Assembly: GCA_017463665.1 (NCBI GenBank)
Contig: JAFTOT010000095.1
Location: forward strand, 1 to 44,749
Length of the DNA: 44,749 nt
Origin: Clostridia bacterium
GTDB taxonomy: Bacteria > Bacillota > Clostridia > Oscillospirales > CAG-272
Reading direction: 5' to 3'
The notes beneath the pieces are model-generated. The model saw only the letters and a list, made by a program, of their open reading frames with translations, was not told the DNA's origin and searched no databases. The translations under genes and the position numbers were made by a program. Positions 9,774 through 40,963 of this stretch are shown piece after piece. Numbering within the stretch: position 1 is the first letter of the stretch; every line of letters begins with the position of its first letter.

Positions 9774-9824
9774 AACCGTGATCGCTTTCCGCTATACTGT
9801 AGATACACAGAAAGGACGAGAGGT

Positions 9825-10697
9825 ATGGATTGGATCACGGGACTGCAGAGGGCAATTGATTACGTTGAGGAGCACATCACCGAGGAAGTAGATTATGAAG
9901 AAGCGGCAAAGCGCGCGTATTCGTCGAGTTTTCATTTTCAGCGGGTCTTTGCGGTGATCTGCGGCTTTACCCTCGGCGAATATATTCGCTGCCGCAGGCT
10001 CTCGCTTGCGGCAAAGGCGCTGATCGAGTCGGATGCCAAAGTGATCGACATTGCGCTGCAATACGGGTACGATGCGCCCGAAAGCTTTTCCCGCGCGTTT
10101 ACCAAATTTCACGGTATCAGCCCCTCGCAGGCGAGATGCGGTGCCTCAGTCAAATCCTTTTCCCGCCTTTGTGTGAAACTTTCATTACACGGAGGAACGA
10201 CTATGGATTACAGGATCGAAAAGAAAGAAGCATTTGATATCGTCGTGCGAAAAAAGAACTTCGCAAAACCGGGGGAGCAGACCGGTAAAGAGATTCCTGC
10301 GTTTTGGGGCGAGTGCCACGCGGACGGAACCATCCGCGAGCTGATCGGCTATATCCCAAAAGAAGATGTGTTCGGACTCATGGGTATCAGCCGCTATGAC
10401 ATGGAAGCGCCCGATTTTTGCTACGGTATCGGCGTAAGCTACGCGGGCGGTGAGATCGCGGACAAAACGCTGTGCATCGAGCGGATCCCTGCGCACACCT
10501 ATGTCGTGTTCAAATGCGTCGGCAAAATGCCCCAAGCATTTCAAGAGCTGTATCGCTATATCTGCACCGAGTTTTTCCCGACAAGCACCTATATGCCCTG
10601 CGGCGTGGAGATCGAGGCATATCCGTCCGACGACGTACAAAATCCCGACTATACCTGCGAACTTTGGATCGCGGTAGAGAAAAAAACAGTAATGTAA
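9825..10697 (+). CDS. AraC-family regulator with C-terminal GyrI-like effector domain
   Basis: AIDYVEEHI, FHFQRVF, IDIALQYGYDAPESFSRAF; C-terminal IPAHTYVVF...CELWIAV. Confidence 0.92.
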   Translation: MDWITGLQRAIDYVEEHITEEVDYEEAAKRAYSSSFHFQRVFAVICGFTLGEYIRCRRLSLAAKALIESDAKVIDIALQYGYDAPESFSRAFTKFHGISPSQARCGASVKSFSRLCVKLSLHGGTTMDYRIEKKEAFDIVVRKKNFAKPGEQTGKEIPAFWGECHADGTIRELIGYIPKEDVFGLMGISRYDMEAPDFCYGIGVSYAGGEIADKTLCIERIPAHTYVVFKCVGKMPQAFQELYRYICTEFFPTSTYMPCGVEIEAYPSDDVQNPDYTCELWIAVEKKTVM

Positions 10698-32351: not shown

Positions 32352-32380
32352 TTGACATCTGCCCATGAAATGTGTATACT
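32352..32380 (+). promoter_or_regulatory. sigma-A promoter upstream of the riboswitch
   Basis: TTGACA-17 bp-TATACT with extended -10 TG. Confidence 0.8.
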
Positions 32381-32399
32381 GTATATATTAAGAGATAAT

Positions 32400-32490
32400 A
32401 CAGCATTTAAGCAAACCTGCCGAAAGACAGGGACGCAAAGCCACGGTGTCTAACCGATTTTATTCGTACGTTCGACCGGTTGCAACTTTT
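32400..32490 (+). ncRNA. GEMM-I (c-di-GMP-I) riboswitch, A20 variant
   Basis: GCAAACCTGCC-GAAA-GACAGGGACGCAAAGCC...TCTAA...CCGGTTGC matches the GEMM-I P2/GNRA/P3 pattern; P1 pairing is not clear by eye. Confidence 0.85.
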
Positions 32491-32522
32491 TTCGAAGTGT
32501 TGCAGCCGGTTTTTCTTTTTTT
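32475..32522 (+). terminator. Riboswitch expression-platform terminator
   Basis: ACCGGTTGCAAC...GTTGCAGCCGGT followed by TTTTCTTTTTTT; the 5' arm overlaps the aptamer 3' strand. Confidence 0.85.
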
Positions 32523-32540
32523 CGCATGGGAGGTGAAGCG

Positions 32541-33236
32541 ATGCATACGGTCTTGCGAGAAGAAAAGAAGTTTTTGATCGGCATACATGAATTTATTTCC
32601 AAGAGCCATCAGCTCCGGCAGGTACTTTTGCAGGATGAACACAACGGAACGCACGGGTATATGATACGGTCGCTGTATTTTGATACGCCTTTTGACAGAG
32701 ACTTTTTTGAAAAGCAGGCGGGAACGGAAGTGCGAAGAAAGATCCGTCTTCGCATCTACGATCCGAAACAGGATTTTGCCATGCTGGAGATGAAGCAGAA
32801 GCAGGGGACGCAGCAGTTGAAGCGCTCGCTTCGAGTATCCCGCGCCGATGCGGAAAAATTGATCCGCTGCGACTTTTCGCCGCTGCTGATGTACAGGGAG
32901 CCTTTCGCTGCGGAGATGTACGGCTTTTTGCAGATGCACTGCTATCGGCCGAAAACCATCGTGCAGTACACCCGAAAAGCCTTTATTGCAAAAGAGAACA
33001 AAATACGCATTACGTTCGATCACCGCATCGTCGCCACCGAAAGCTCATTTGATCTGTTCTCGGAAAACTTGAATATGGATCCGATTTTGGATCCGTACGA
33101 TGTGGTTATGGAAGTCAAGTTCAACGGCTTTTTGCTGTCGTATGTGCAGCAGATAATCAACAGCATCGACAAAAGCGAGCTGTCGGTCAGCAAATACGCA
33201 CTTGCCCGCCAAAACGCGTATCAGACACATATTTAA
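32541..33236 (+). CDS. VTC-domain (polyphosphate polymerase-like, CYTH/TTM fold) protein
   Basis: R.E.KF, IRSLYFDT, R.KIRLRIY, LEMK.K, Y.R.A, RITFD, MEVKF, SKY. Confidence 0.88.
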   Translation: MHTVLREEKKFLIGIHEFISKSHQLRQVLLQDEHNGTHGYMIRSLYFDTPFDRDFFEKQAGTEVRRKIRLRIYDPKQDFAMLEMKQKQGTQQLKRSLRVSRADAEKLIRCDFSPLLMYREPFAAEMYGFLQMHCYRPKTIVQYTRKAFIAKENKIRITFDHRIVATESSFDLFSENLNMDPILDPYDVVMEVKFNGFLLSYVQQIINSIDKSELSVSKYALARQNAYQTHI

Positions 33237-33247
33237 GGAGAAGTTTT

Positions 33248-33925
33248 ATGAAAGACAAACTGTTTAGTTTATTGGAGAGCGGCGGCGAGCTGCCTTTGCA
33301 GGAGGTCACTGCCAATATCCTCATGGCGGCGGTACTCGGCTTTTTGATCTTTGTGTCCTATTCTATATCGCATCGCGGCACGATCTACAGCAAAAAATTC
33401 AATGCATCTCTGGTGGTGCTGACCGTGCTGACAGGGACGGTCATGACTGTCATCGGCAATAACATTGCGCTCTCGCTCGGTATGGTTGGTGCGCTGTCCA
33501 TCGTTCGTTTCCGTACGGCGATCAAAGACAGCCGCGACACCGTGTATATTTTCTGGACGGTCATTGTCGGCATCTGCTGCGGCGTGGGCGACTATACCGT
33601 TGCGGCGATCGGCAGTGTCGCCACCTTCGTTGTTCTGCTTCTTTTGGGATGTATCAAAAATGACAATCGGATGCTGCTGATCATCCGCGCCTCGCGCAAT
33701 CGGCAGGCGGTGATCCAAGCGCATATTTTCAAGCTGTTTCAGCGTAAAGCGATCCTCAGAGTGCGCAACACGACGGATCAGACCGTGGAATTTATCTATG
33801 AGATCACCTCGAAGCAGTTAAGGCGCGCGGAAAGTGTAAACACGGATCTTGTGGATTCGATCTATGCGATCGGCGGCGTGGAGTATGTGAACATCGTGAT
33901 GCAAAACGACGAGGTATCAGGCTGA
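33248..33925 (+). CDS. DUF4956 membrane protein
   Basis: IG.NIALSLGMVGALSIVRFRTAIKD.RD..YIFW signature; TMs plus soluble C-terminal domain. Confidence 0.88.
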   Translation: MKDKLFSLLESGGELPLQEVTANILMAAVLGFLIFVSYSISHRGTIYSKKFNASLVVLTVLTGTVMTVIGNNIALSLGMVGALSIVRFRTAIKDSRDTVYIFWTVIVGICCGVGDYTVAAIGSVATFVVLLLLGCIKNDNRMLLIIRASRNRQAVIQAHIFKLFQRKAILRVRNTTDQTVEFIYEITSKQLRRAESVNTDLVDSIYAIGGVEYVNIVMQNDEVSG

Positions 33926-33968
33926 ATGCATGCGTGATCATTTTTAAACGAAGAAGGGAGCGGTAGTG

Positions 33969-35447
33969 ATGCGAAAAACAATCCTCGGCTGTATTGCCTG
34001 TGTGCTGGCACTGGCGATCACCTTCATCACCGCAGCCGTACGATCGGATACAAACGACCGCTTCCATCAGCACATGGATGCAGAACCCAAGACGGCATGT
34101 ACGCACGGGGACGATCGCTTCTGCACGCATTTGCCGCTGGTGCAGATCGATACGGGCGGCGAAGACATTCCCGGAGTCCCCATACCCGACGCAGATGGGC
34201 GCCAGATCGGCTTTACAACGACCGAAAGCGGCGAGACCGAGCTGCTCTGCAATATCAAAATTACCGATAACCCGAGTGAAAACAATCATATCGGCGATAC
34301 CCCTGCCGTAGACAGCGCCGCGCGGGTGCGTGTCCACGGTAACTCCTCCCGCTTTTTTGACAAGCATAATTACAGTGTCACGTTCGTGACAGAAAGCGGT
34401 GAGAACAACCCGCTTTCGGTCATGGGCATGGATGCGCACCACGAATGGGTGCTGCACGGACCGTTTTTGGATAAGACGCTGCTCCGCAATTATCTGTGCT
34501 GCAATATCGCGGGCGAGATCATGGATTGGGCACCGAACGTCCGCTTTTGTGAGGTTATATTGAGCGGAGAATACAATGGACTCTATCTGATGACCGAGAG
34601 CATCACCGCCGGTCAGGACGGTGCCAGACTCAATATGACGGTCGATAAAAAAGACAACTCTTTTTCGGGCTACATTCTCCGTCTGGATCGCGGCAGTGCA
34701 AATGCGCTCAAAAATATCGAACCCTTTTCGCTGTATTCCGACCGCATTGCAAACGGTCATATCAATATCGTGTACCCCGGTGCGGCAAATCTGACCGAAG
34801 AGCTGCGCGAAAGCATACGGCAGGATTTTTCCGACTTTGAGCACATGCTGTATTCTTTCGACTTTGACCACAGCGAATACGGATACTCGCAGGCGATCGA
34901 TGTCGATTCCTTTATAAACTACTTTTTGCTCAACGAATTCACCTGCAATTACGACGCGGGCACGTATTCTACCTATATCTACAAAGGCATCGACGGCAAA
35001 TACCGCATGTGCGTGTGGGATTTCAACAACGCCTTTGACAATTATCAGGAGCAGCGGACAGATGCCGAGATGTTTACGCTGCAGGAGTGCCTTTGGTACT
35101 ACATGCTCATCAAGGATGACGATTTCACCGATACGCTGATCGATCGGTACTATGCGCTGCGGCAGACCTATTTCAGTGAAGAATATCTGGATACGTATAT
35201 AGATGATACGATCGCATACCTCGGCGACGCCATCGACCGCAACTTTGAAAAGTGGGGCTATACATTCGAGTCGGACGAAGGGCTGTTAAGTCCGCATTCC
35301 CGCAATCCGCACAGCTATGCAGAAGCGGTGGAACAGCTCAAAGCATTTATTGCAAAGCGCGGCGGCTGGATGGATGAAAACATCGAGGCGCTGCGGCAGT
35401 ATTCGGCAAATTCCAAGACCAAGCTGTATAAGGAACATACCAAATAA
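33969..35447 (+). CDS. CotH kinase family protein (secreted or membrane-anchored)
   Basis: N-terminal hydrophobic leader; HGNSS...K..Y, W.L.....DKTLLRN, Y.GLY.M.E.I, N.D....S.Y.YK, WDFNNAF. Confidence 0.88.
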   Translation: MRKTILGCIACVLALAITFITAAVRSDTNDRFHQHMDAEPKTACTHGDDRFCTHLPLVQIDTGGEDIPGVPIPDADGRQIGFTTTESGETELLCNIKITDNPSENNHIGDTPAVDSAARVRVHGNSSRFFDKHNYSVTFVTESGENNPLSVMGMDAHHEWVLHGPFLDKTLLRNYLCCNIAGEIMDWAPNVRFCEVILSGEYNGLYLMTESITAGQDGARLNMTVDKKDNSFSGYILRLDRGSANALKNIEPFSLYSDRIANGHINIVYPGAANLTEELRESIRQDFSDFEHMLYSFDFDHSEYGYSQAIDVDSFINYFLLNEFTCNYDAGTYSTYIYKGIDGKYRMCVWDFNNAFDNYQEQRTDAEMFTLQECLWYYMLIKDDDFTDTLIDRYYALRQTYFSEEYLDTYIDDTIAYLGDAIDRNFEKWGYTFESDEGLLSPHSRNPHSYAEAVEQLKAFIAKRGGWMDENIEALRQYSANSKTKLYKEHTK

Positions 35448-35460
35448 GGAGAAAAAGGAT

Positions 35461-37638
35461 ATGAAAAAGTTTATCATCATCGTGTCCTGTGTGGTGTGCC
35501 TTGTGCTGCTGTTTCACTATTTATACTATTATCAAGGCTGCTATATTGATTTTTCGCCCAATACGGCTGTCACCACCTTTGTGCGCACGGAGAATGACAA
35601 GATCTATCTGGATCGGGGCGACGGATATCGGGAATTTGAGATCAAAGGTGTGGACCTCGGCTCGGGTGTTCCCGGCAAGTGGTCTACGGACTTTGCGGCG
35701 AGCAAGGAAGATTACCTGCGCTGGTTTGCGCTGATCCGGGAGATGGGCGCAAACACGATCCGCGTATATACCATCCACGATGATGCGTTTTACGATGCCT
35801 TTTATGCGTACAACATCGACAATCCCGAACCGCTGTATCTGCTGCACGGTGTATGGGTGAACGACTATCTGTATAATTCCCGCAAGGATGCTTTTGACGA
35901 TGAGCTGCTCGGCAATTTCGTCCGCGATTGCAAGAGGATGGTCGATGTCATTCACGGCAATCGGAAGATCCCGCACGGAAGCTTGGAATCTGCGGGCTCG
36001 GGTACCTATACCAAGGACATTTCACAGTGGGTGATCGGCTATATTCTGGGCGTAGAATGGGAAGATGTCATGGTGGTGTATACCAACGAAAAATTTAAGA
36101 ATAACGATGCCTACCATCGCTATTACGGAAAATATATGTACACCACCGAGGATGCAACCCCGTTTGAAGCGATGCTGGCGCGTGTCGGGGATTCGATCAT
36201 CGAATATGAGTCCGAGCGATACAAGGTGCAAAAGCTGGTCGCGTTTTCCAACTGGCCCATCACCGATCCGTTTACATATCCGGACTATCTGACCGACTTT
36301 TTCCATAAATGTGCGCGTGTGGATGTGGAGCATATCGGCTGTACAGAGGCGTTTTTGTCCGGACAGTTTGCCTCGTATCATATCTACCCGTACTACAGAG
36401 ATTATCTCGCCTATGTAACCGACTTTTCCGCGCTGGATTTCGATGTGGATGTTGCCGCTTGCCTCGAGGACGGCGTCCTCAATACCTATAAGCTGTATTT
36501 GAAGGCGATCGCCGACCACCACCGGATGCCGGTCATCATTTCGGAATTCGGTATTCCAACGGGGCGCGGCATTGCCCATGTGGACGTCAATACGGGAAGA
36601 GATCAGGGGCATATGTCGGAGACCGAACAGGGAAAAGCGCTCGTCGAATGCTATAATGACATTATGGAAGCGGGGTGCGCGGGAAGCTGTTTGTTTTCCT
36701 GGCAGGACGAGTGGTTCAAGCGAACATGGAACACGAACTACGCGGTGGATCTTGCAAGAACGCCGTATTGGTCGGATATGCAGACCAATGAGCAGTATTT
36801 CGGTCTGCTTGCCTTCGATCCGGGAGAAGAGACCTCTGTTTGCTATGTAGACGGCAATGTTTCGGAATGGGGAGAAGAGGACATTGTTGCGCAGAGCAGG
36901 GACATGTCGCTGTCGATGCAATACGATGAAGCGGCGGTATATTTTCTGATCCGAAAAGAGGATCTGGATTTTGAAAATGAAACGCTGTATATTCCCGTGG
37001 ACGTAACCCCGAAAAGCGGCAGCAGTTATTGCGAGAACTATGGCTTGCTGTTTGACCGTGCGGCGGATTTTGTGATCGTCATCGACGGCAAAAGCAACAG
37101 CCGCATTCTGGTACAGGAACGCTACGAGGTCCTTCGCGCCAACTATGCGCAGTCGGTTTACGGATTTGACACCTATGTAAAGGGAAATATCCCCGATGTG
37201 GATTCTCCGAAGTTCGTGGATGTCGATATGATCCTGCAACTGACACAGCTGCAAAACGGAGCAAAGGTAGCACTTGCCGAGGTGTTCCCGACGGGACGCC
37301 TGACATACGGAAATGCCGATCCGGACAGCGAGGACTATACCTCTCTGGCGGATTTCATTTGCAGCGGAGATCATGTGGAGATCCGCATTCCCTGGGCGCT
37401 GCTCAATTTCTCCGACCCCTCGCACATGCAGATCCACGACGACTATTACGACGGTAACTACGGTATCGAGGCGATCACCGTTGACAGCATCTATGTCGGC
37501 ATTGCTTCCGATATTGCCGCAGGGCGCATCCATCTTGCGGAAAAGAAAATGCAGGGATGGGGAAACGATGTGACCTACCATGAGCGGCTGAAACCTGCTT
37601 ATTATGTAATGAAAGGCATTTGGGGGAACGACGAATGA
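35461..37638 (+). CDS. Membrane-anchored GH-A clan TIM-barrel glycoside hydrolase-like protein
   Basis: N-terminal TM; IKGV, MGANTIRVY, GYILGVEW (acid/base), SYHIYPY, PVIISEFG (nucleophile), FSWQDEW. Confidence 0.75.
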   Translation: MKKFIIIVSCVVCLVLLFHYLYYYQGCYIDFSPNTAVTTFVRTENDKIYLDRGDGYREFEIKGVDLGSGVPGKWSTDFAASKEDYLRWFALIREMGANTIRVYTIHDDAFYDAFYAYNIDNPEPLYLLHGVWVNDYLYNSRKDAFDDELLGNFVRDCKRMVDVIHGNRKIPHGSLESAGSGTYTKDISQWVIGYILGVEWEDVMVVYTNEKFKNNDAYHRYYGKYMYTTEDATPFEAMLARVGDSIIEYESERYKVQKLVAFSNWPITDPFTYPDYLTDFFHKCARVDVEHIGCTEAFLSGQFASYHIYPYYRDYLAYVTDFSALDFDVDVAACLEDGVLNTYKLYLKAIADHHRMPVIISEFGIPTGRGIAHVDVNTGRDQGHMSETEQGKALVECYNDIMEAGCAGSCLFSWQDEWFKRTWNTNYAVDLARTPYWSDMQTNEQYFGLLAFDPGEETSVCYVDGNVSEWGEEDIVAQSRDMSLSMQYDEAAVYFLIRKEDLDFENETLYIPVDVTPKSGSSYCENYGLLFDRAADFVIVIDGKSNSRILVQERYEVLRANYAQSVYGFDTYVKGNIPDVDSPKFVDVDMILQLTQLQNGAKVALAEVFPTGRLTYGNADPDSEDYTSLADFICSGDHVEIRIPWALLNFSDPSHMQIHDDYYDGNYGIEAITVDSIYVGIASDIAAGRIHLAEKKMQGWGNDVTYHERLKPAYYVMKGIWGNDE

Positions 37639-38732
37639 AGGTCGAAATGCTGATTTATGCCTATCTTGCCGTATGTGCGGCAATGATCGTGTTTAATATC
37701 GCATGTATCTTTGTGTTCCGCCATAAGGACAAAAAGCTGGATGATCGCAGCAGTGCCTTTACAGACAAAGTAAGAAAGCAGACAGCTACGGATGAGATTA
37801 CCGAGGCGCATCGGAAATATCTTTGCAAAAAGCTGCGGCACGTAAACCATCTGATGGCATTTGACAAAACGCTCGAGGCGCTTTACATAGAAGATCCGCA
37901 AAAGATCAAGGCCTATGTTGAAAAGCTGTCTGCGGTGTTTATTTATCTCACATTTGTTTATCGGAAGAAAAACAAACTGCAGATGGCGTATTTCCCTTAC
38001 ATCATTAAAAAGTATCAGCTTTTCAGGGGATATAACATCAGCATCGTTACCGACGTTATGCTCGATCTGGTGCGCGAGCCCGCTCTGTATTGCCGTGAAA
38101 ATGCGCTGCAAGCACTGTATTCTATCGGAGATGCGGACAGTGTGATCGAGGCGCTGTGCATTTTGGATGTCGGTGCGTACTACCACCATCCGAAGATGAT
38201 CACGGACGGTTTGCTGTCCTTTTGCGGCGACCGCGAAAAGCTTGCCGATAAGCTGTGGGACAAGCTACCCACTTTCTCCGAGCGGATGCAGGTAAGCGTT
38301 TTGGATTATTTCCGCTTTTGCAGCGGAGAATACTGCGAGCCGATCCTGCGCTTGCTTGCGTCGGGCGATCTCGGCGATGAAGCGACGTACAGTTGTATCC
38401 GTTATTTCGGAAAATATGCATACGAGCCTGCCTTGCCGCAGCTTTTACGCTTTGCGGAAATTACGGATGAGAACCGCTGGGAGTATACCGCCATTACCGC
38501 TACGGCTTTGGCGATCTATCCCTGCAGAGAAACGGAAGCTATCCTGCGCTCCATGCTGCACAGCCGCAATTGGTATGTGCGCTTTAATGCGTCCCAAAGT
38601 CTGGAGCGGCAGGGACTGGAGTACACCGATCTGGTGGATATTTTTGAAGGCGACGATCGCTACGCGGGCGAGATCATGCGGTATCGCTTCGATCAAAAGA
38701 AAATGCGCGAAAAGGAGGCGGCTTTCCTGTGA
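37635..38732 (+). CDS. Membrane-anchored HEAT-repeat protein
   Basis: N-terminal TM; helical repeats RENALQAL, ATALA.Y, L...NWYVRFNASQSL; overlaps the GT2 start. Confidence 0.78.
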   Translation: MKVEMLIYAYLAVCAAMIVFNIACIFVFRHKDKKLDDRSSAFTDKVRKQTATDEITEAHRKYLCKKLRHVNHLMAFDKTLEALYIEDPQKIKAYVEKLSAVFIYLTFVYRKKNKLQMAYFPYIIKKYQLFRGYNISIVTDVMLDLVREPALYCRENALQALYSIGDADSVIEALCILDVGAYYHHPKMITDGLLSFCGDREKLADKLWDKLPTFSERMQVSVLDYFRFCSGEYCEPILRLLASGDLGDEATYSCIRYFGKYAYEPALPQLLRFAEITDENRWEYTAITATALAIYPCRETEAILRSMLHSRNWYVRFNASQSLERQGLEYTDLVDIFEGDDRYAGEIMRYRFDQKKMREKEAAFL

Positions 38733-40144
38733 GAGGAGAGATCTTCCGCCTTGTGCAGTCGGTTCTGGACGGCATCGACATCTTTTTTGTGATCTACATG
38801 ATCGGCTACTCCTCCTTTTTGTTCCTCGCTGTGGTGATCGGTTCCTCGGAGCTGTATAAAAAGCGGCAGCAGGAAAAACTCAAGAACACGCTTTTGCAGG
38901 ATTATTATATACCGATCAGCATTATCGTTCCGGCATACAACGAGGAAGTAACGGTGGTCGAAACCGTACGATCGCTGCTGGCGCTGGAGTACACGCTTTA
39001 CGAGATCATCGTTGTGGATGACGGCTCCACGGACACCACTTCGCAAAAACTGATCGAAGCCTTTCATATGCACCCGATCCGCCGTCCCATTCATCGAAAG
39101 ATCAGCTGCCTGCCCGAAGAATTTGTGTACGAGACCGCGGCGCAAAAAGTATCGCTGACGCTCATCCGCAAGAAAAACGGCGGCAAAGCCGATTCCCTGA
39201 ACATGGGCATCAACGCCTGTCGGTATCCGTATTTTATTTGCATGGATGCCGATTCCGTACTGCAACATGACTCGCTTAGCAAGATCGTGCGCCCGATCAT
39301 CGAGTGCAAAAATGTTGTTGCGGTCGGCGGTGTGATCCGCCCCGGCAACAGTGTAGAGCTGGAATGGGGACATGTGGTAAAGTATCGGCTGCCGAGAAAC
39401 ATTCTTGCCTGCATGCAGGTGCTGGAATACGACCGATCGTTTTTGGCTTCCCGCATCCTGTTTGACAAATTCAACGGTTCGTTGATCATTTCCGGCGCGT
39501 TCGGTCTGTTCAAAAAGGATGTTGTCATTGCGGCGGGCGGATACGATCGTTCGACGATGGGCGAGGACATGGAGCTGGTCGTGAAGCTGCATGAATACTG
39601 TGTGGCAAACGATATGCCCTATACGATCAAATATGCTACGGATGCCATCTGCTGGTCACAGGCGCCCGAAAGACTGCGGGATCTCTGCAAGCAAAGAAGG
39701 CGGTGGCATTTAGGCTTGTTTCAGAGCCTGTGGAAGCATAAAGTGCTGCTTGCCAATCCGAGATTCGGCGCGGTCAGCTTTATCTCCTACTTCTATTTCC
39801 TGCTGTATGAATTATTGTCACCGTTTATTGAGATCTTGGGTATCGCCTCTATGATGGCGGCTTTTTCGCTGGATCTGATCGACGTTCCGTTTACGGCGTT
39901 GTTCTTTTTGATCTATGCGGTGTTTGGATGTGCACTTACCCTTACGGCGTTTTTTGCCCGTATACAGACGATCGATCTGAAGATATCGTTTATGGATGCG
40001 CTCAAGGCTGTGGTGTTGTGCTTCTTTGAGATCTGCGTTCTGCGATTGATTATGGCGTTTGTACGGGCGACTGCCTTTATCGGCTACAAGAAGAAAAAGC
40101 TGGATTGGGGACATATCGAGCGTAAAAAAATCAATATCCAATAG
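38729..40144 (+). CDS. Processive GT2 glycosyltransferase (beta-glycan synthase-like)
   Basis: IIVPAYNEE, VDDGS, NGGKADSLN, DADS, GED, QRRRW; one N-terminal and about three C-terminal TMs. Confidence 0.92.
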   Translation: MRGEIFRLVQSVLDGIDIFFVIYMIGYSSFLFLAVVIGSSELYKKRQQEKLKNTLLQDYYIPISIIVPAYNEEVTVVETVRSLLALEYTLYEIIVVDDGSTDTTSQKLIEAFHMHPIRRPIHRKISCLPEEFVYETAAQKVSLTLIRKKNGGKADSLNMGINACRYPYFICMDADSVLQHDSLSKIVRPIIECKNVVAVGGVIRPGNSVELEWGHVVKYRLPRNILACMQVLEYDRSFLASRILFDKFNGSLIISGAFGLFKKDVVIAAGGYDRSTMGEDMELVVKLHEYCVANDMPYTIKYATDAICWSQAPERLRDLCKQRRRWHLGLFQSLWKHKVLLANPRFGAVSFISYFYFLLYELLSPFIEILGIASMMAAFSLDLIDVPFTALFFLIYAVFGCALTLTAFFARIQTIDLKISFMDALKAVVLCFFEICVLRLIMAFVRATAFIGYKKKKLDWGHIERKKINIQ

Positions 40145-40306
40145 AAGATAGCGTGAAAGTTTAATTTGCAATATGTTTTGTATGGATGATTTCACGCCTA
40201 ACTCCTCGCAAAATGGGACCCGAACCCATTTTACCGCACAAAGTGCGGTGCCGAGGATTTCATTTTACGATTTGTGCCGCCGCTTGGCGGCGGAATGGAG
40301 ATTACC

Positions 40307-40756
40307 ATGAAGAACTGTTTGTTGAAAAACGCGCTGTTCGGCTATTCCAAATTGAGTGTTTGCGAATATATCGCTTCTGTGAACGAGGAGTTCAGCCAAA
40401 AGCTTTTGCAGGAGGCAGCGGAATATAAAAAAGACAAAGAGGAATTGAAAGCGAAGATCGCCGCGCTCGAAGAAGAGCTTGTGCAGTACAGAAAGGCGCA
40501 CAGCGATGTGGCGACGGTCCTCTTCGAGGCGCAGCAGTATGCGGACATCTTAAAGCGGCAGGCAGAAGCGGAGAACAACCGTGTATGTGCCGAACTTGCA
40601 GAGCAGCATAAGGCGCAGACCGAAAAGCTCACGGCGTATGCTGCCGCGATCGCCGAATTGCGCGAAAATCTAAAGGCGTTTGTCGAGGAGACGGACGAGA
40701 AGCTTTTGGTCTATATGCAGCGCGGTAGTGAGATCGTCGAAGCATTCAAGGAGTAA
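40307..40756 (+). CDS. DivIVA-like coiled-coil protein
   Basis: LK.ALFGYSK..V.EYI N-terminal motif, then coiled coil with L.EAQ..AD....QAE; GGAG RBS. Confidence 0.65.
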   Translation: MKNCLLKNALFGYSKLSVCEYIASVNEEFSQKLLQEAAEYKKDKEELKAKIAALEEELVQYRKAHSDVATVLFEAQQYADILKRQAEAENNRVCAELAEQHKAQTEKLTAYAAAIAELRENLKAFVEETDEKLLVYMQRGSEIVEAFKE

Positions 40757-40760
40757 GTTT

Positions 40761-40868
40761 ATGAAACGAGGGCTTACGGCGTCTTGCTTGCTTTGCTTAT
40801 TTGGCATATGCTTGTCGGTGCCCGCGTTTGCCGCAGTACATATGCTGTTCACGATACCGTTAAGATAA
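40761..40868 (+). pseudogene. Truncated secreted protein (signal peptide only)
   Basis: RBS AAGGAG; MKRGLTASCLLCLFGICLSVPAFAA is a Sec signal with an A-F-A site; the frame then runs into antisense sigma remnant and stops. Confidence 0.6.
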
Positions 40869-40963
40869 AGAATCAAATCGTCTCTGTAATCCCTTACGAT
40901 TTCCGCTAAGCCTTTGTCATCACCATCAAGGAAACGGCGGTAGCTACTTGCACCGTTGTCCAT
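40830..40963 (-). pseudogene. 5' remnant of an ECF RNA polymerase sigma factor
   Basis: RBS AAAGGAG; MDNGASSYRRFLDGDDKGLAEIVRDYRDDLILYLNGIVNSICTA resembles the start of ECF region 2; similarity ends where AE-D/E would follow. Confidence 0.7.

What the first reader, a model, noticed from the sequence alone, without database searches (positions are those of the whole stretch)
32541..40756. Riboswitch-controlled VTC-DUF4956-CotH-GH-HEAT-GT2-DivIVA operon: candidate phosphorylated exopolysaccharide system
Seen: six tightly spaced or overlapping genes plus a seventh 160 bp downstream, under one promoter and riboswitch. They encode a VTC-type enzyme, a DUF4956 membrane protein, an exported CotH kinase, an anchored GH-A hydrolase, an anchored HEAT protein and a processive GT2 (D,D,D,QRRRW; no PilZ evident). 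Established: synthase-dependent EPS systems combine a GT2, a scaffold, a hydrolase and a modifying enzyme; yeast VTC couples polyP synthesis to a membrane channel; CotH is an atypical kinase. Inference: VTC plus DUF4956 make or export a phosphoryl donor that lets extracellular CotH phosphorylate the nascent beta-glycan or surface proteins, producing a cyclic-dinucleotide-induced anionic matrix. The gene set does not match cellulose, PNAG or Pel operons as I know them.
Basis: partly seen in the sequence, partly recalled or inferred. Interest (0 to 1): 0.82.

Follow-up and report, generated by a model that had tools for sequence, protein, structure and literature searches.

The report
Riboswitch-controlled sugar-polymer operon with phosphate module
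A gut Clostridia bacterium puts seven genes under one c-di-GMP-sensing RNA switch: three that probably make and trim a sticky amino-sugar polymer, and three phosphate-handling genes (plus a coiled-coil gene) whose role nobody has yet worked out.

Summary
A promoter, a c-di-GMP-I riboswitch (58 bits) and a terminator that overlaps the aptamer's 3' end precede seven same-strand genes. These are VTC, DUF4956, CotH, a 725-aa TIM-barrel protein, a HEAT protein, a processive GT2 and a DivIVA-like protein.

The six-gene order recurs in 60 of 80 related Clostridia loci. Nineteen of the other 20 end at a contig edge.

- **Two modules.** GH-HEAT-GT2 occurs without the trio in Deinococcus and Paenibacillus. 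The trio occurs with two-component systems, with Pel genes or alone.
- **Polymer.** The GT2 is closest to PNAG synthase PgaC/IcaA. A CE4 deacetylase sits in 22 of 73 related loci, and GH-CE4 and GH-HEAT fusions exist. This points to a PNAG-like polymer.
- **c-di-GMP link.** It is robust: a riboswitch in 68 of 80 loci and an adjacent GGDEF gene in 6 more.
- **Prior print.** The cassette is listed as C. perfringens NELoc-2, and the trio is described beside Gram-positive pel loci. No function is given in either case.

Glycan phosphorylation remains untested.

The parts
32352..32380 (+). sigma-70-type promoter-like site (TTGACA, 17 nt, TATACT)
   Evidence: 11 of 12 matches, the best site in the scanned region. 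This is a consensus match only.
32400..32487 (+). c-di-GMP-I riboswitch aptamer
   Evidence: RF01051, 58 bits (gathering score 35), full-length model match. It is the only RF01051 match in the 84%-complete genome.
32474..32522 (+). intrinsic-terminator hairpin (13 bp, 32474-32511) plus U-run. The 5' arm overlaps the aptamer's 3' end, which implies an ON switch.
   Evidence: MFE fold, z = -2.75; by my own heuristic, an equivalent overlapping hairpin plus U-run occurs in 57 of 68 leaders that carry the CGCAAAG motif.
32541..33236 (+). cytoplasmic VTC-domain protein (Vtc4-type triphosphate-tunnel polyphosphate polymerase homologue), 231 aa
   Evidence: PF09359, 130 bits. K10, K67, R69, R71, E83, K85, K94, R145, R156, E191, K193 and K218 are invariant in 58 sequences; no TM segment.
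33248..33925 (+). DUF4956 membrane protein (MgtC-like, about 5 TM segments plus a soluble C-terminal domain), 225 aa
   Evidence: PF16316 3.5e-13, weak MgtC matches. TM segments at 22-136. G81, R87, F88 and R89 are invariant. tblastn finds it next to VTC in 72 of 76 sampled loci.
33966..35447 (+). extracytoplasmic CotH-family kinase homologue with an N-terminal signal anchor, 493 aa
   Evidence: PF08757 1.2e-58 over the whole model. TM segment at 6-24. N328/D330 and W351/D352 are invariant, and the profile hits B. cereus CotH 5jd9 at 7.1e-5.
35461..37638 (+). membrane-anchored extracytoplasmic TIM-barrel glycanase-like protein of an unnamed family, 725 aa
   Evidence: no Pfam family, and no PDB hit with the single sequence; the profile hits 9fz9 at 9.1e-4, including ISEFG (E362); weak GH72 match in 13 of 36 members; fusions to CE4 and to HEAT.
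37635..38732 (+). single-pass membrane protein with a cytoplasmic HEAT-repeat domain, 365 aa
   Evidence: HEAT_2 8.3e-7. TM segment at 15-33 with a positively charged C-flank; matches only its own family. GH-HEAT fusions.
38729..40144 (+). processive family-2 glycosyltransferase (synthase), PgaC/IcaA-like, 471 aa
   Evidence: Glycos_transf_2 4.9e-29; TIGR03937 1.1e-40 but 139.9 bits against a cut-off of 422.3; D, D, D and QRRRW motifs. TM segments before and after the catalytic domain.
40274..40756 (+). DivIVA-like coiled-coil protein, 160 aa (the start may be 40295 or 40307)
   Evidence: PF05103, 30.4 bits against a cut-off of 28; a homologue directly follows GT2 in 33 of 55 related loci that have room for it.

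Best explanation
This is a c-di-GMP-induced exopolysaccharide operon assembled from two separable modules.

Regulation:
- Shown: a c-di-GMP-I aptamer whose 3' strand is also the 5' arm of an intrinsic terminator.
- Inferred: ligand binding prevents termination and switches on all seven genes.

Module A, the synthase module:
- The GT2 is a PgaC/IcaA-like processive synthase. I infer that it polymerises and translocates an N-acetylhexosamine polymer resembling PNAG.
- It works with a membrane-anchored cytoplasmic HEAT-repeat partner. I infer that this partner takes the place of PgaD/IcaD.
- An anchored extracytoplasmic TIM-barrel glycanase trims or releases the chain. This parallels the hydrolase half of PgaB.

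Module B, the phosphate module:
- It contains a cytoplasmic Vtc4-type polyphosphate polymerase, its invariable DUF4956 (MgtC-like) membrane partner, and a surface-exposed CotH kinase.
- This module occurs on its own in many Clostridia. It was recruited separately to GT2-type and to Pel-type loci.
- Its most likely role (inferred, unproven) is to deliver phosphate or polyphosphate chemistry to the cell surface or matrix. Either polyP is exported, or CotH phosphorylates surface or matrix targets, or both. Either route would tune the amount and charge of an amino-sugar matrix.

The DivIVA-like gene is a frequent seventh member of unknown role.
For: Regulation:
- Aptamer, promoter and overlapping terminator are present.
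- A riboswitch lies just upstream of VTC in 68 of 80 related loci by my model R1. Fourteen of those sequences built the model.
- As an independent check, Rfam finds it in 14 of 18 loci.
- A terminator overlapping the aptamer occurs in 57 of 68 leaders.
- Of the 12 loci without a riboswitch, 6 have a GGDEF gene directly upstream.
- The window's own genome, 84% complete, has one GGDEF gene and one c-di-GMP-I riboswitch. No EAL, PilZ or class II riboswitch was found.

Cassette:
- All six genes are collinear in 60 of 80 loci.
- The same set occurs on a Planococcus maritimus plasmid at 30-51% identity.

Two modules:
- GH-HEAT-GT2 occurs without the trio in Deinococcus radiophilus pRadio2 and Paenibacillus cellulosilyticus.
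- In 76 sampled VTC loci, 45 have CotH within 7 kb. Of these, 16 sit with a two-component system, 7 with Pel genes, 5 with a GT2 and 17 with none of these.
- Genomic context maps onto VTC clades: the GT2 group has support 92/83 and the Pel group 99/88.

Polymer:
- PgaC_IcaA is the best NCBIfam match at 1.1e-40, against CelA at 1.1e-10 and NodC at 1.5e-7.
- An FN3-CE4 lipoprotein is inserted in 22 of 73 loci. Six were tested by Pfam and all six matched.
- GH-CE4 fusions (1 of 9 long forms tested) and GH-HEAT fusions (3 of 9) exist.

Active sites and topology:
- Tunnel residues of VTC are invariant.
- N328/D330 and W351/D352 of CotH are invariant. D228 and D251 are the inactivating positions in B. 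subtilis CotH (PMC7821199 passages).
- Topology was estimated.

Literature (passages seen): S. intermedius CotH and DUF4956 homologue deletions change Pel amount and aggregation (PMC12345266).
Against: - No structure or complex model could be made.
- The GT2 scores far below the PgaC/IcaA equivalog cut-off (139.9 against 422.3).
- The window's own locus has no CE4 gene.
- The TIM-barrel protein matches known hydrolases only at profile level (E 9.1e-4). Its acid/base residue could not be placed.
- Most trio loci have no synthase nearby, so the trio's link to the polymer is not obligatory.
- In S. intermedius, all four accessory mutants still aggregated and made Pel. The VTC mutant is not named among the two with reduced aggregation.
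- The VTC profile reaches solved Vtc4 only at E 0.11.
- Co-transcription is inferred from gene spacing only.
- Two more distant six-gene loci (L090, L104) have no riboswitch.
Confidence: 0.6

Rival explanations
1. VTC and DUF4956 make and export a phosphoryl donor (polyP). Extracellular CotH uses it to phosphorylate the nascent glycan, producing an anionic phosphorylated EPS.
For: - CotH carries a signal anchor and is extracytoplasmic, where ATP is scarce.
- A VTC-DUF4956 pair precedes CotH within 5 kb at 49 of 81 VTC places.
- The trio lies beside two unrelated synthase systems.
- Some CotH proteins in trio loci carry carbohydrate-associated modules (LTD, CHB_HEX_C, Fn3_assoc).
- Where CotH is missing, a Cthe_2159 carbohydrate-binding-family protein often follows the pair (9 loci).
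- Glycan kinases exist among secretory-pathway kinases (recalled, not checked here).
Against: - 33 of 45 trio loci have no recognised synthase within 7 kb.
- The S. intermedius VTC mutant is not named among the two with reduced aggregation; those two were the CotH and DUF4956 mutants.
- CotH is so far known only as a protein Ser kinase that uses ATP (passages).
Confidence: 0.15
2. The trio is a regulatory device. CotH phosphorylates surface or secreted proteins, possibly the anchored hydrolase or other envelope proteins. DUF4956/VTC adjust phosphate or energy status. Together they set how much polymer is made, without modifying it chemically.
For: - In S. intermedius, the DUF4956 homologue deletion gave more Pel and the CotH deletion gave less Pel.
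- The trio frequently sits next to two-component systems (16 of 45).
- CotH is a proven protein kinase.
- DUF4956 resembles MgtC. The authors of PMC12345266 link MgtC to phosphate metabolism.
Against: - No conserved candidate protein substrate is encoded with the trio. My clustering found none beyond two-component-system genes and Cthe_2159.
- The model gives no role to an intact polyP polymerase tunnel.
Confidence: 0.2
3. The polymer is not PNAG-like. The GT2 makes a beta-glucan or chitin-like beta-1,4 polymer, and the TIM-barrel protein is a glucanase or transglycosylase.
For: - Weak GH72 (beta-1,3-glucanosyltransferase) matches occur in 13 of 36 family members.
- The GT2 has a weak Chitin_synth_2 match.
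- The NELoc-2 homologue was annotated as chitin synthase.
- The GT2 score is far under the PgaC/IcaA cut-off.
Against: - PgaC_IcaA scores about 100 bits above CelA and NodC.
- CE4 deacetylase genes and a GH-CE4 fusion argue for an N-acetylated sugar. Chitin-like chains would also fit that evidence.
Confidence: 0.2

Closest known systems
Clostridium perfringens NELoc-2 (CP4_0463-CP4_0468; Lepp et al. 2010, PMC2879425; table and passages seen)
   Same: The same six products appear in the same order with near-identical lengths. NELoc-2 has VTC 230, membrane protein 222, CotH 497, hypothetical 685, HEAT 377 and glycosyl transferase 466 aa. The window has 231, 225, 493, 725, 365-370 and 471 aa.
   Different: - NELoc-2 carries an extra VTC/membrane-protein pair, a resolvase and a sigma factor gene.
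- No riboswitch or EPS role is reported for it.
- I compared annotations only, not sequences.
Gram-positive pelDEADAFG loci with accessory cotH, polyP polymerase, DUF4956 and DUF4832 genes (Whitfield 2020, PMC7112168; S. intermedius 2025, PMC12345266; passages seen)
   Same: The same trio, plus an anchored TIM-barrel hydrolase, sits beside a synthase-dependent system for an amino-sugar polymer. I found the trio next to PelF/PelG in 7 of 76 sampled loci.
   Different: - The synthase here is a GT2 with a HEAT partner, not PelF/PelG/PelD/PelE.
- The hydrolase shows no DUF4832 match.
- Control here is by riboswitch.
- The 2025 paper states that the trio's synteny was not found outside Pel loci. 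This locus, NELoc-2 and the stand-alone loci contradict that statement.
PNAG systems pgaABCD / icaADBC
   Same: - GT2 synthase of the PgaC/IcaA type (best NCBIfam match).
- CE4 deacetylase in 22 of 73 relatives.
- A hydrolase domain, fused to CE4 in one relative as in PgaB.
- c-di-GMP control.
   Different: - The GT2 scores below the equivalog cut-off.
- There is no PgaD/IcaD or PgaA/IcaC; a HEAT protein is present instead.
- c-di-GMP acts on the mRNA rather than on the synthase, as far as can be seen here.
- The phosphate trio is added.
Yeast VTC polyphosphate polymerase complex (Vtc4 catalytic domain)
   Same: Membership of the Pfam VTC family with conserved tunnel residues, and an obligatory membrane partner encoded next to it.
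   Different: - The membrane partner is DUF4956/MgtC-like, not the VTC transmembrane domain.
- There is no SPX domain.
- Similarity to solved Vtc4 is only E 0.11.
- Polymerase activity and translocation are untested.
Bacillus CotH spore-coat kinase (5jd9)
   Same: CotH Pfam domain over its full length. The Asp positions that correspond to the inactivating D228 and D251 positions are invariant.
   Different: - This protein is exported with a signal anchor.
- It has a conserved Cys/His-rich N-terminal extension.
- It lies in a non-spore operon.
- Its substrate and donor are unknown.

Membership tests
c-di-GMP-I riboswitch (RF01051) | Covariance-model score at or above Rfam's gathering score over the full aptamer | tested here: met
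   58 bits against 35, model positions 1-87 of 87.
c-di-GMP-I riboswitch (RF01051) | An expression platform that competes with the aptamer | tested here: met
   the terminator's 5' arm overlaps the aptamer's 3' end; the same layout occurs in 57 of 68 related leaders.
c-di-GMP-I riboswitch (RF01051) | Binds c-di-GMP and changes transcription | not testable with these tools
   Needs in-line probing and a termination assay.
VTC / Vtc4-type polyphosphate polymerase (PF09359) | Pfam score above the cut-off over the whole domain | tested here: met
   130.3 bits against 23, positions 2-232 of 235.
VTC / Vtc4-type polyphosphate polymerase (PF09359) | Conserved basic and acidic tunnel residues | tested here: met
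   17 invariant columns, mostly K, R, E and Y, in 58 sequences down to 22% identity. Assigning them to the tunnel wall is an inference.
VTC / Vtc4-type polyphosphate polymerase (PF09359) | Recognisable similarity to the solved Vtc4 catalytic domain | tested here: inconclusive
   E 0.11, 56 residues aligned, including the YxR...RI..D segment.
VTC / Vtc4-type polyphosphate polymerase (PF09359) | Coupled to the VTC-type transmembrane channel | tested here: not met
   the partner is DUF4956/MgtC-like. No other membrane domain is present in the operon's VTC gene.
CotH kinase (PF08757) | Full-length CotH domain | tested here: met
   199.6 bits, positions 1-322 of 322.
CotH kinase (PF08757) | Catalytic and metal-binding Asp (D228 and D251 of B. 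subtilis CotH) | tested here: inconclusive
   D330 and D352 are invariant and align with the N-x-D and W-D motifs of 5jd9. That part of the alignment scores only 1.1 bits on its own.
Processive membrane GT2 synthase (BcsA/PgaC/IcaA type) | D, D, D, Q(Q/R)xRW motifs, with transmembrane helices after the catalytic domain | tested here: met
   DDGS97, DADS173, GED278, QRRRW322; TM segments at about 362-445.
PNAG synthase PgaC/IcaA (TIGR03937 equivalog) | Score above the curated equivalog cut-off | tested here: not met
   139.9 bits against 422.3. It is the best match of 26 families.
PNAG system (pga/ica) | CE4 de-N-acetylase in the locus | tested here: not met
   None in the window's locus. Present in 22 of 73 related loci. 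Three CE4 genes lie elsewhere in the genome.
Pel system | PelF (GT4 with DUF3492) and PelG in the locus | tested here: not met
   none of the seven products or the two flanking genes matches these. Pel-linked trios are a separate VTC clade.
Clan GH-A glycoside hydrolase | TIM barrel with the nucleophile Glu on strand 7 and the acid/base on strand 4 | tested here: inconclusive
   invariant E362 (ISEFG) aligns with the Glu of 9fz9 that is Ala in entry 9g4n. The acid/base residue was not located, and no fold could be predicted.
DivIVA (PF05103) | Pfam score above the cut-off | tested here: met
   30.4 bits against 28, a marginal match for a coiled-coil protein.
NELoc-2 cassette | Same products in the same order | tested here: met
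   the paper's table compared. Sequence identity was not tested.

The most novel reading that the evidence does not exclude
VTC plus DUF4956 is a bacterial polyphosphate synthase-translocase that threads polyP to the outside of the membrane.

There the polyP could serve two purposes:
- as the phosphoryl donor for the surface kinase CotH;
- as a polyanion that cross-links cationic, partly deacetylated amino-sugar polymers.

The two EPS types that recruited the trio, Pel and the PNAG-like polymer, are both of that kind (their cationic nature is recalled, not checked here).

That would be a self-contained extracytoplasmic phosphorylation and charge-tuning system. By my sample it is present in roughly one in eight genomes of this phylum, switched on by c-di-GMP here and by two-component systems elsewhere.
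Probability: 0.15. Interest if true: 0.9.

Novelty: new variant of a known kind. Interest (0 to 1): 0.6.

Why it matters
**How common it is.**
- Close relatives of the VTC gene were confirmed at 303 places in a collection holding one genome per species.
- The cassette also sits in the necrotic-enteritis-associated NELoc-2 of C. perfringens. No function has been assigned to it in the papers I could search.

- Showing that the cassette is a c-di-GMP-controlled, PNAG-like synthase module joined to a portable phosphate module gives a concrete experimental handle on three uncharacterised families:
  - DUF4956;
  - the 725-aa hydrolase-like family, with at least 1876 clusters at 50% identity;
  - the HEAT partner.
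- The result corrects a published statement that the trio is confined to Pel loci.
- The window's genome has one diguanylate cyclase gene and one riboswitch. That looks like a minimal c-di-GMP circuit suitable for study.

Tried and rejected

Fold searches were therefore impossible.
- Complex prediction of VTC with DUF4956 was not available.

**Searches that gave nothing**
- No RNA holder was listed for the operon.
- Single-sequence PDB searches found nothing for the 725-aa protein, CotH or VTC. Profile searches were needed.
- No paper citing PDB entries 9fz9, 9g5g or 9g4n was found, so that enzyme's substrate is unknown to me.
- Literature searches for DUF4956, for riboswitch plus VTC/CotH, for HEAT plus pgaC/icaA and for NELoc-2 found no functional study of this cassette.
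- Supplementary figures S4 and S5 of PMC7112168, which draw the accessory-gene loci, could not be seen. They may already show GT2-type neighbours.

**Readings I rejected**
- Cellulose or Pel system: there is no BcsB, PilZ, PelF or PelG.
- Spore-coat role for CotH: the protein carries a signal anchor and sits in an EPS operon.

**Limits of my methods**
- My context tally uses my own ORF calling and blastp clusters. EPS genes that stayed as singletons would be missed.
- 25 of the 76 sampled loci were left out of the tree because their VTC or DUF4956 ORF fell outside my length filters.
- Model R1 was built from 14 of the sequences it later found. It found nothing in the 76 sampled loci.
- One locus (L064) loses the end of HEAT and has no GT2. 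I did not follow this up.

Full report
**What is in the window**

A strong sigma-70-like promoter lies at 32352-32380 (11 of 12 matches). It is followed by a full-length c-di-GMP-I aptamer at 32400-32487 (RF01051, 58 bits against a gathering score of 35).

Folding 32395-32530 gives a 13-bp hairpin at 32474-32511 followed by a U-run (z = -2.75). Its 5' arm is the last 14 nt of the aptamer. Aptamer and terminator therefore exclude each other. I infer that the ligand-bound state lets transcription proceed, making this an ON switch.

Seven genes follow on the same strand:
- VTC, 32541-33236.
- DUF4956, 33248-33925.
- CotH, 33966-35447.
- A 725-aa protein, 35461-37638.
- A HEAT protein, 37635-38732.
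- A GT2, 38729-40144.
- After 130-162 nt, a DivIVA-like protein ending at 40756.

The flanking genes are a divergent DUF255/thioredoxin-like gene and recQ.

A hydropathy scan suggests this topology:
- VTC has no membrane segment.
- DUF4956 has about five membrane segments plus a soluble C-terminal domain.
- CotH and the 725-aa protein each have an N-terminal signal anchor, so their bodies lie outside the cell.
- The HEAT protein has one membrane segment followed by a positively charged flank, which places its repeats in the cytoplasm.
- The GT2 has membrane segments before and after its catalytic domain.

The GT2 carries DDGS97, DADS173, GED278 and QRRRW322 and has no PilZ domain.

**Conservation of the cassette**

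The VTC protein has 3113 database relatives at E <= 1e-5. The named ones are called 'polyphosphate polymerase domain-containing protein' and come from Acutalibacteraceae and other Clostridia MAGs.

A scan of one genome per species confirmed 303 places that encode a close relative. I examined the best 80, at 66-79% identity.
- All six genes are collinear in 60 of the 80.
- In 19 of the other 20, the contig ends within 1015 nt of the last detected gene.
- One locus (L064) loses the end of HEAT and has no GT2.
- GT2 is the most conserved gene (66-84% identity) and HEAT the least (38-67%).
- A homologue of the DivIVA-like gene directly follows GT2 in 33 of 55 loci that have room for it.
- In 22 of 73 loci, a 1.4-1.7 kb insert sits between DUF4956 and CotH. 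It encodes a lipoprotein with FN3 and polysaccharide deacetylase (CE4) domains. I tested 6 by Pfam and all 6 matched, at E 1e-11 to 1e-17.

**The c-di-GMP link**

- Rfam finds a c-di-GMP-I aptamer just upstream of VTC in 14 of 18 short loci. One of these is the GGC variant.
- My covariance model R1, built from the window and 13 of those hits, finds it in 68 of the 80 loci. One locus has a tandem pair and one has a second, divergent copy.
- By a heuristic of my own, a terminator-like hairpin whose 5' arm overlaps the aptamer's end occurs in 57 of 68 leaders. The arm sequences differ between loci but stay complementary.
- Twelve loci have no riboswitch by R1, and Rfam also found none in the 11 of them I gave it (L077 was not scanned). 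In 6 of the 12, a GGDEF diguanylate cyclase gene lies directly upstream: five on the same strand and one divergent.
- Altogether, 74 of 80 loci are tied to c-di-GMP by one of two independent genomic arrangements.
- The window's own genome is 84% complete. It has one GGDEF gene (233 aa, two membrane segments, GGDEF motif intact) and exactly one c-di-GMP-I riboswitch, which is this one. No EAL, PilZ or class II riboswitch was found. HD-GYP was not tested, and absence cannot be claimed for an incomplete genome.

**Two modules**

I sampled 401 genomes spread evenly across the phylum, including the window's own.
- VTC occurs in 68 and CotH in 62; 55 have both.
- 49 of 81 VTC places have a CotH match within 5 kb.
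- 65 of 100 CotH match rows lie within 5 kb of a VTC.

I fetched 76 VTC loci and clustered their ORFs.
- tblastn finds DUF4956 beside VTC in 72 of the 76.
- Within 7 kb of VTC, 45 loci have CotH. Their neighbours are a two-component system in 16, PelF/PelG/DUF2194 in 7, a GT2 in 5, and none of these in 17.
- Nine loci have a Cthe_2159-family protein instead of CotH, and 8 of those 9 also have a two-component system.
- 22 loci have neither, and some of these are cut by contig ends.
- None of the 76 has a riboswitch by R1.

A maximum-likelihood tree of 58 VTC proteins puts each genomic context on its own branch. Support is 92/83 for the GT2-linked group, 99/88 for the Pel-linked group and 100/100 for the Cthe_2159-linked group. 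The groups were defined by me from context, the tree is unrooted, and related sequences tend to share labels.

The other half of the operon also occurs alone.
- In Deinococcus radiophilus plasmid pRadio2, a TPR protein that contains the 725-aa family's domain is followed by HEAT and a glycosyltransferase, with no trio.
- Paenibacillus cellulosilyticus has two copies of the hydrolase-like gene, then a weak HEAT match and a GT2, with no trio within 9 kb.
- A Planococcus maritimus plasmid carries the complete six-gene set at 30-51% identity. It is annotated as polyP polymerase, DUF4956, CotH, hypothetical, HEAT and glycosyltransferase.

**What polymer**

- The GT2's best curated match is PNAG synthase PgaC/IcaA (1.1e-40, 139.9 bits). 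This is well above CelA (1.1e-10) and NodC (1.5e-7), but far below the equivalog cut-off of 422.3.
- The 725-aa family has no Pfam model and is often mislabelled as a glycosyltransferase.
- A profile of that family reaches PDB entry 9fz9, a 'glycoside hydrolase family 2 catalytic domain-containing protein', at E 9.1e-4. The invariant ISEFG glutamate (E362) aligns with the residue that is alanine in the companion entry 9g4n.
- Weak GH72 matches occur in 13 of 36 family members.
- An exhaustive profile search finds 1876 clusters at 50% identity.
- I tested nine long forms by Pfam. One is fused to a CE4 deacetylase, as in PgaB. Three are fused to HEAT repeats. Five have N-terminal extensions with no Pfam match.
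- Together with the CE4 insert in 22 of 73 loci, this points to an N-acetylated amino-sugar polymer handled as in PNAG systems, with HEAT as a physical partner of the hydrolase and synthase. The window's own locus has no CE4. Three CE4 genes lie elsewhere in the genome.

**The phosphate trio**

- VTC is a full-length member of the Pfam family. Seventeen columns, mostly Lys, Arg, Glu and Tyr, are invariant down to 22% identity. This fits an active triphosphate-tunnel enzyme. Similarity to solved Vtc4 is only marginal (E 0.11).
- DUF4956 keeps a G...RFR motif. By my topology estimate, this motif lies at the cytoplasmic end of a membrane segment.
- CotH has the full Pfam domain. A profile of it hits B. 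cereus CotH (7.1e-5). N328/D330 and W351/D352 are invariant and align with that protein's N-x-D and W-D motifs. D228 and D251 are the positions whose mutation inactivates B. subtilis CotH (PMC7821199 passages). That stretch of the alignment is weak on its own.
- What the trio does cannot be settled here.

**What is in print**

- Lepp et al. 2010 list the same six products in C. perfringens NELoc-2, with no functional reading (PMC2879425, table and passages). Later NELoc-2 papers, seen in a search listing plus passages of one paper, add no function.
- Whitfield et al. 2020 describe cotH, a polyP polymerase gene, DUF4956 and DUF4832 as accessory genes of Gram-positive pel loci (passages).
- The 2025 S. 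intermedius paper makes several relevant points (passages):
  - Deleting the CotH and DUF4956 homologues changes Pel level and aggregation.
  - The VTC deletion is not named among the two mutants with reduced aggregation.
  - The DUF4832 protein is an active hydrolase.
  - The authors did not find the trio's synteny outside Pel loci. My data contradict this last statement.
- I found no paper linking a c-di-GMP riboswitch to this cassette, none on the GH-HEAT-GT2 module, and only five papers that mention DUF4956 at all.

**Verdict**

The finding is real and well conserved. It is best read as a new variant of the synthase-dependent, PNAG-like exopolysaccharide systems. It is switched on by c-di-GMP at the RNA level and joined to a portable phosphate module of unknown chemistry.

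Noticed in passing
G000:C102 (L158:3921-4622, - strand) and whole genome G000: In this 84%-complete genome, the only GGDEF gene found is a 233-aa protein with two TM segments and an intact GGDEF motif. The only c-di-GMP riboswitch found is the one in the window. No EAL, PilZ or class II riboswitch was found. This may be a one-cyclase, one-riboswitch circuit.
   Followed up: partly
window:10761-11008 (+): A T-box leader, 97.4 bits against a gathering score of 93. It is unrelated to the finding.
   Followed up: no
L006, L013, L030, L032, L079 (same strand) and L024 (divergent), just upstream of VTC: Loci of the same cassette that lack the riboswitch carry a GGDEF diguanylate cyclase gene in its place, with Cache or MASE6 sensor domains in some. 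In L029, L030 and L032 the leader still ends with what looks, by eye, like the terminator's 3' arm and U-run.
   Followed up: partly
L020:1772-1860; L078:9664-9757 and 9800-9896; L003:1664-1761 (-): Riboswitch variants in front of the cassette: a c-di-GMP-I-GGC variant aptamer in L020, a tandem pair in L078, and a second aptamer in L003 on the opposite strand, facing away from the cassette.
   Followed up: no
P0242, P0266, P0304, P0316 (relatives of window:35461-37638): Natural fusions of the 725-aa hydrolase-like domain exist: one to a CE4 deacetylase and three to HEAT repeats. Five other long forms have N-terminal extensions of about 350-400 aa with no Pfam match.
   Followed up: partly
L082, L085-L088, L095, L100 and others in the phylum sample: In these loci a VTC-DUF4956 pair is followed by a Cthe_2159-family protein (carbohydrate-binding family) instead of CotH, usually beside a divergent two-component system. 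They form their own VTC clade (100/100).
   Followed up: partly
L139, L152, L154: A third arrangement: a different GT2 (24-25% identical to the window's) and a BspA-type leucine-rich-repeat protein lie upstream of VTC-DUF4956-CotH. There is no hydrolase-like gene and no HEAT gene.
   Followed up: no
L109, L113, L119, L135, L142: The order is inverted here, with CotH followed by DUF4956 and then VTC. The CotH is a roughly 995-aa protein with Lamin-tail, CHB_HEX_C and Fn3_assoc domains.
   Followed up: no
window:40670-40963 (-) and 40762-40869 (+): A 97-aa ORF on the opposite strand overlaps the end of the DivIVA-like gene. Its N-terminus looks, by eye only, like sigma-70 region 2. A short ORF on the + strand, with a hydrophobic N-terminus, starts 6 nt after the DivIVA-like stop codon. 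Neither was tested.
   Followed up: no
window:41072-41116: A 19-bp hairpin lies between the operon and recQ. It was reported on the - strand with a weak T-run, and may be a bidirectional terminator.
   Followed up: no
L064:11866-17489: This is the one related locus where the cassette is broken. The HEAT match stops at 65% of its length, and no GT2 is found in the remaining 4.9 kb.
   Followed up: no
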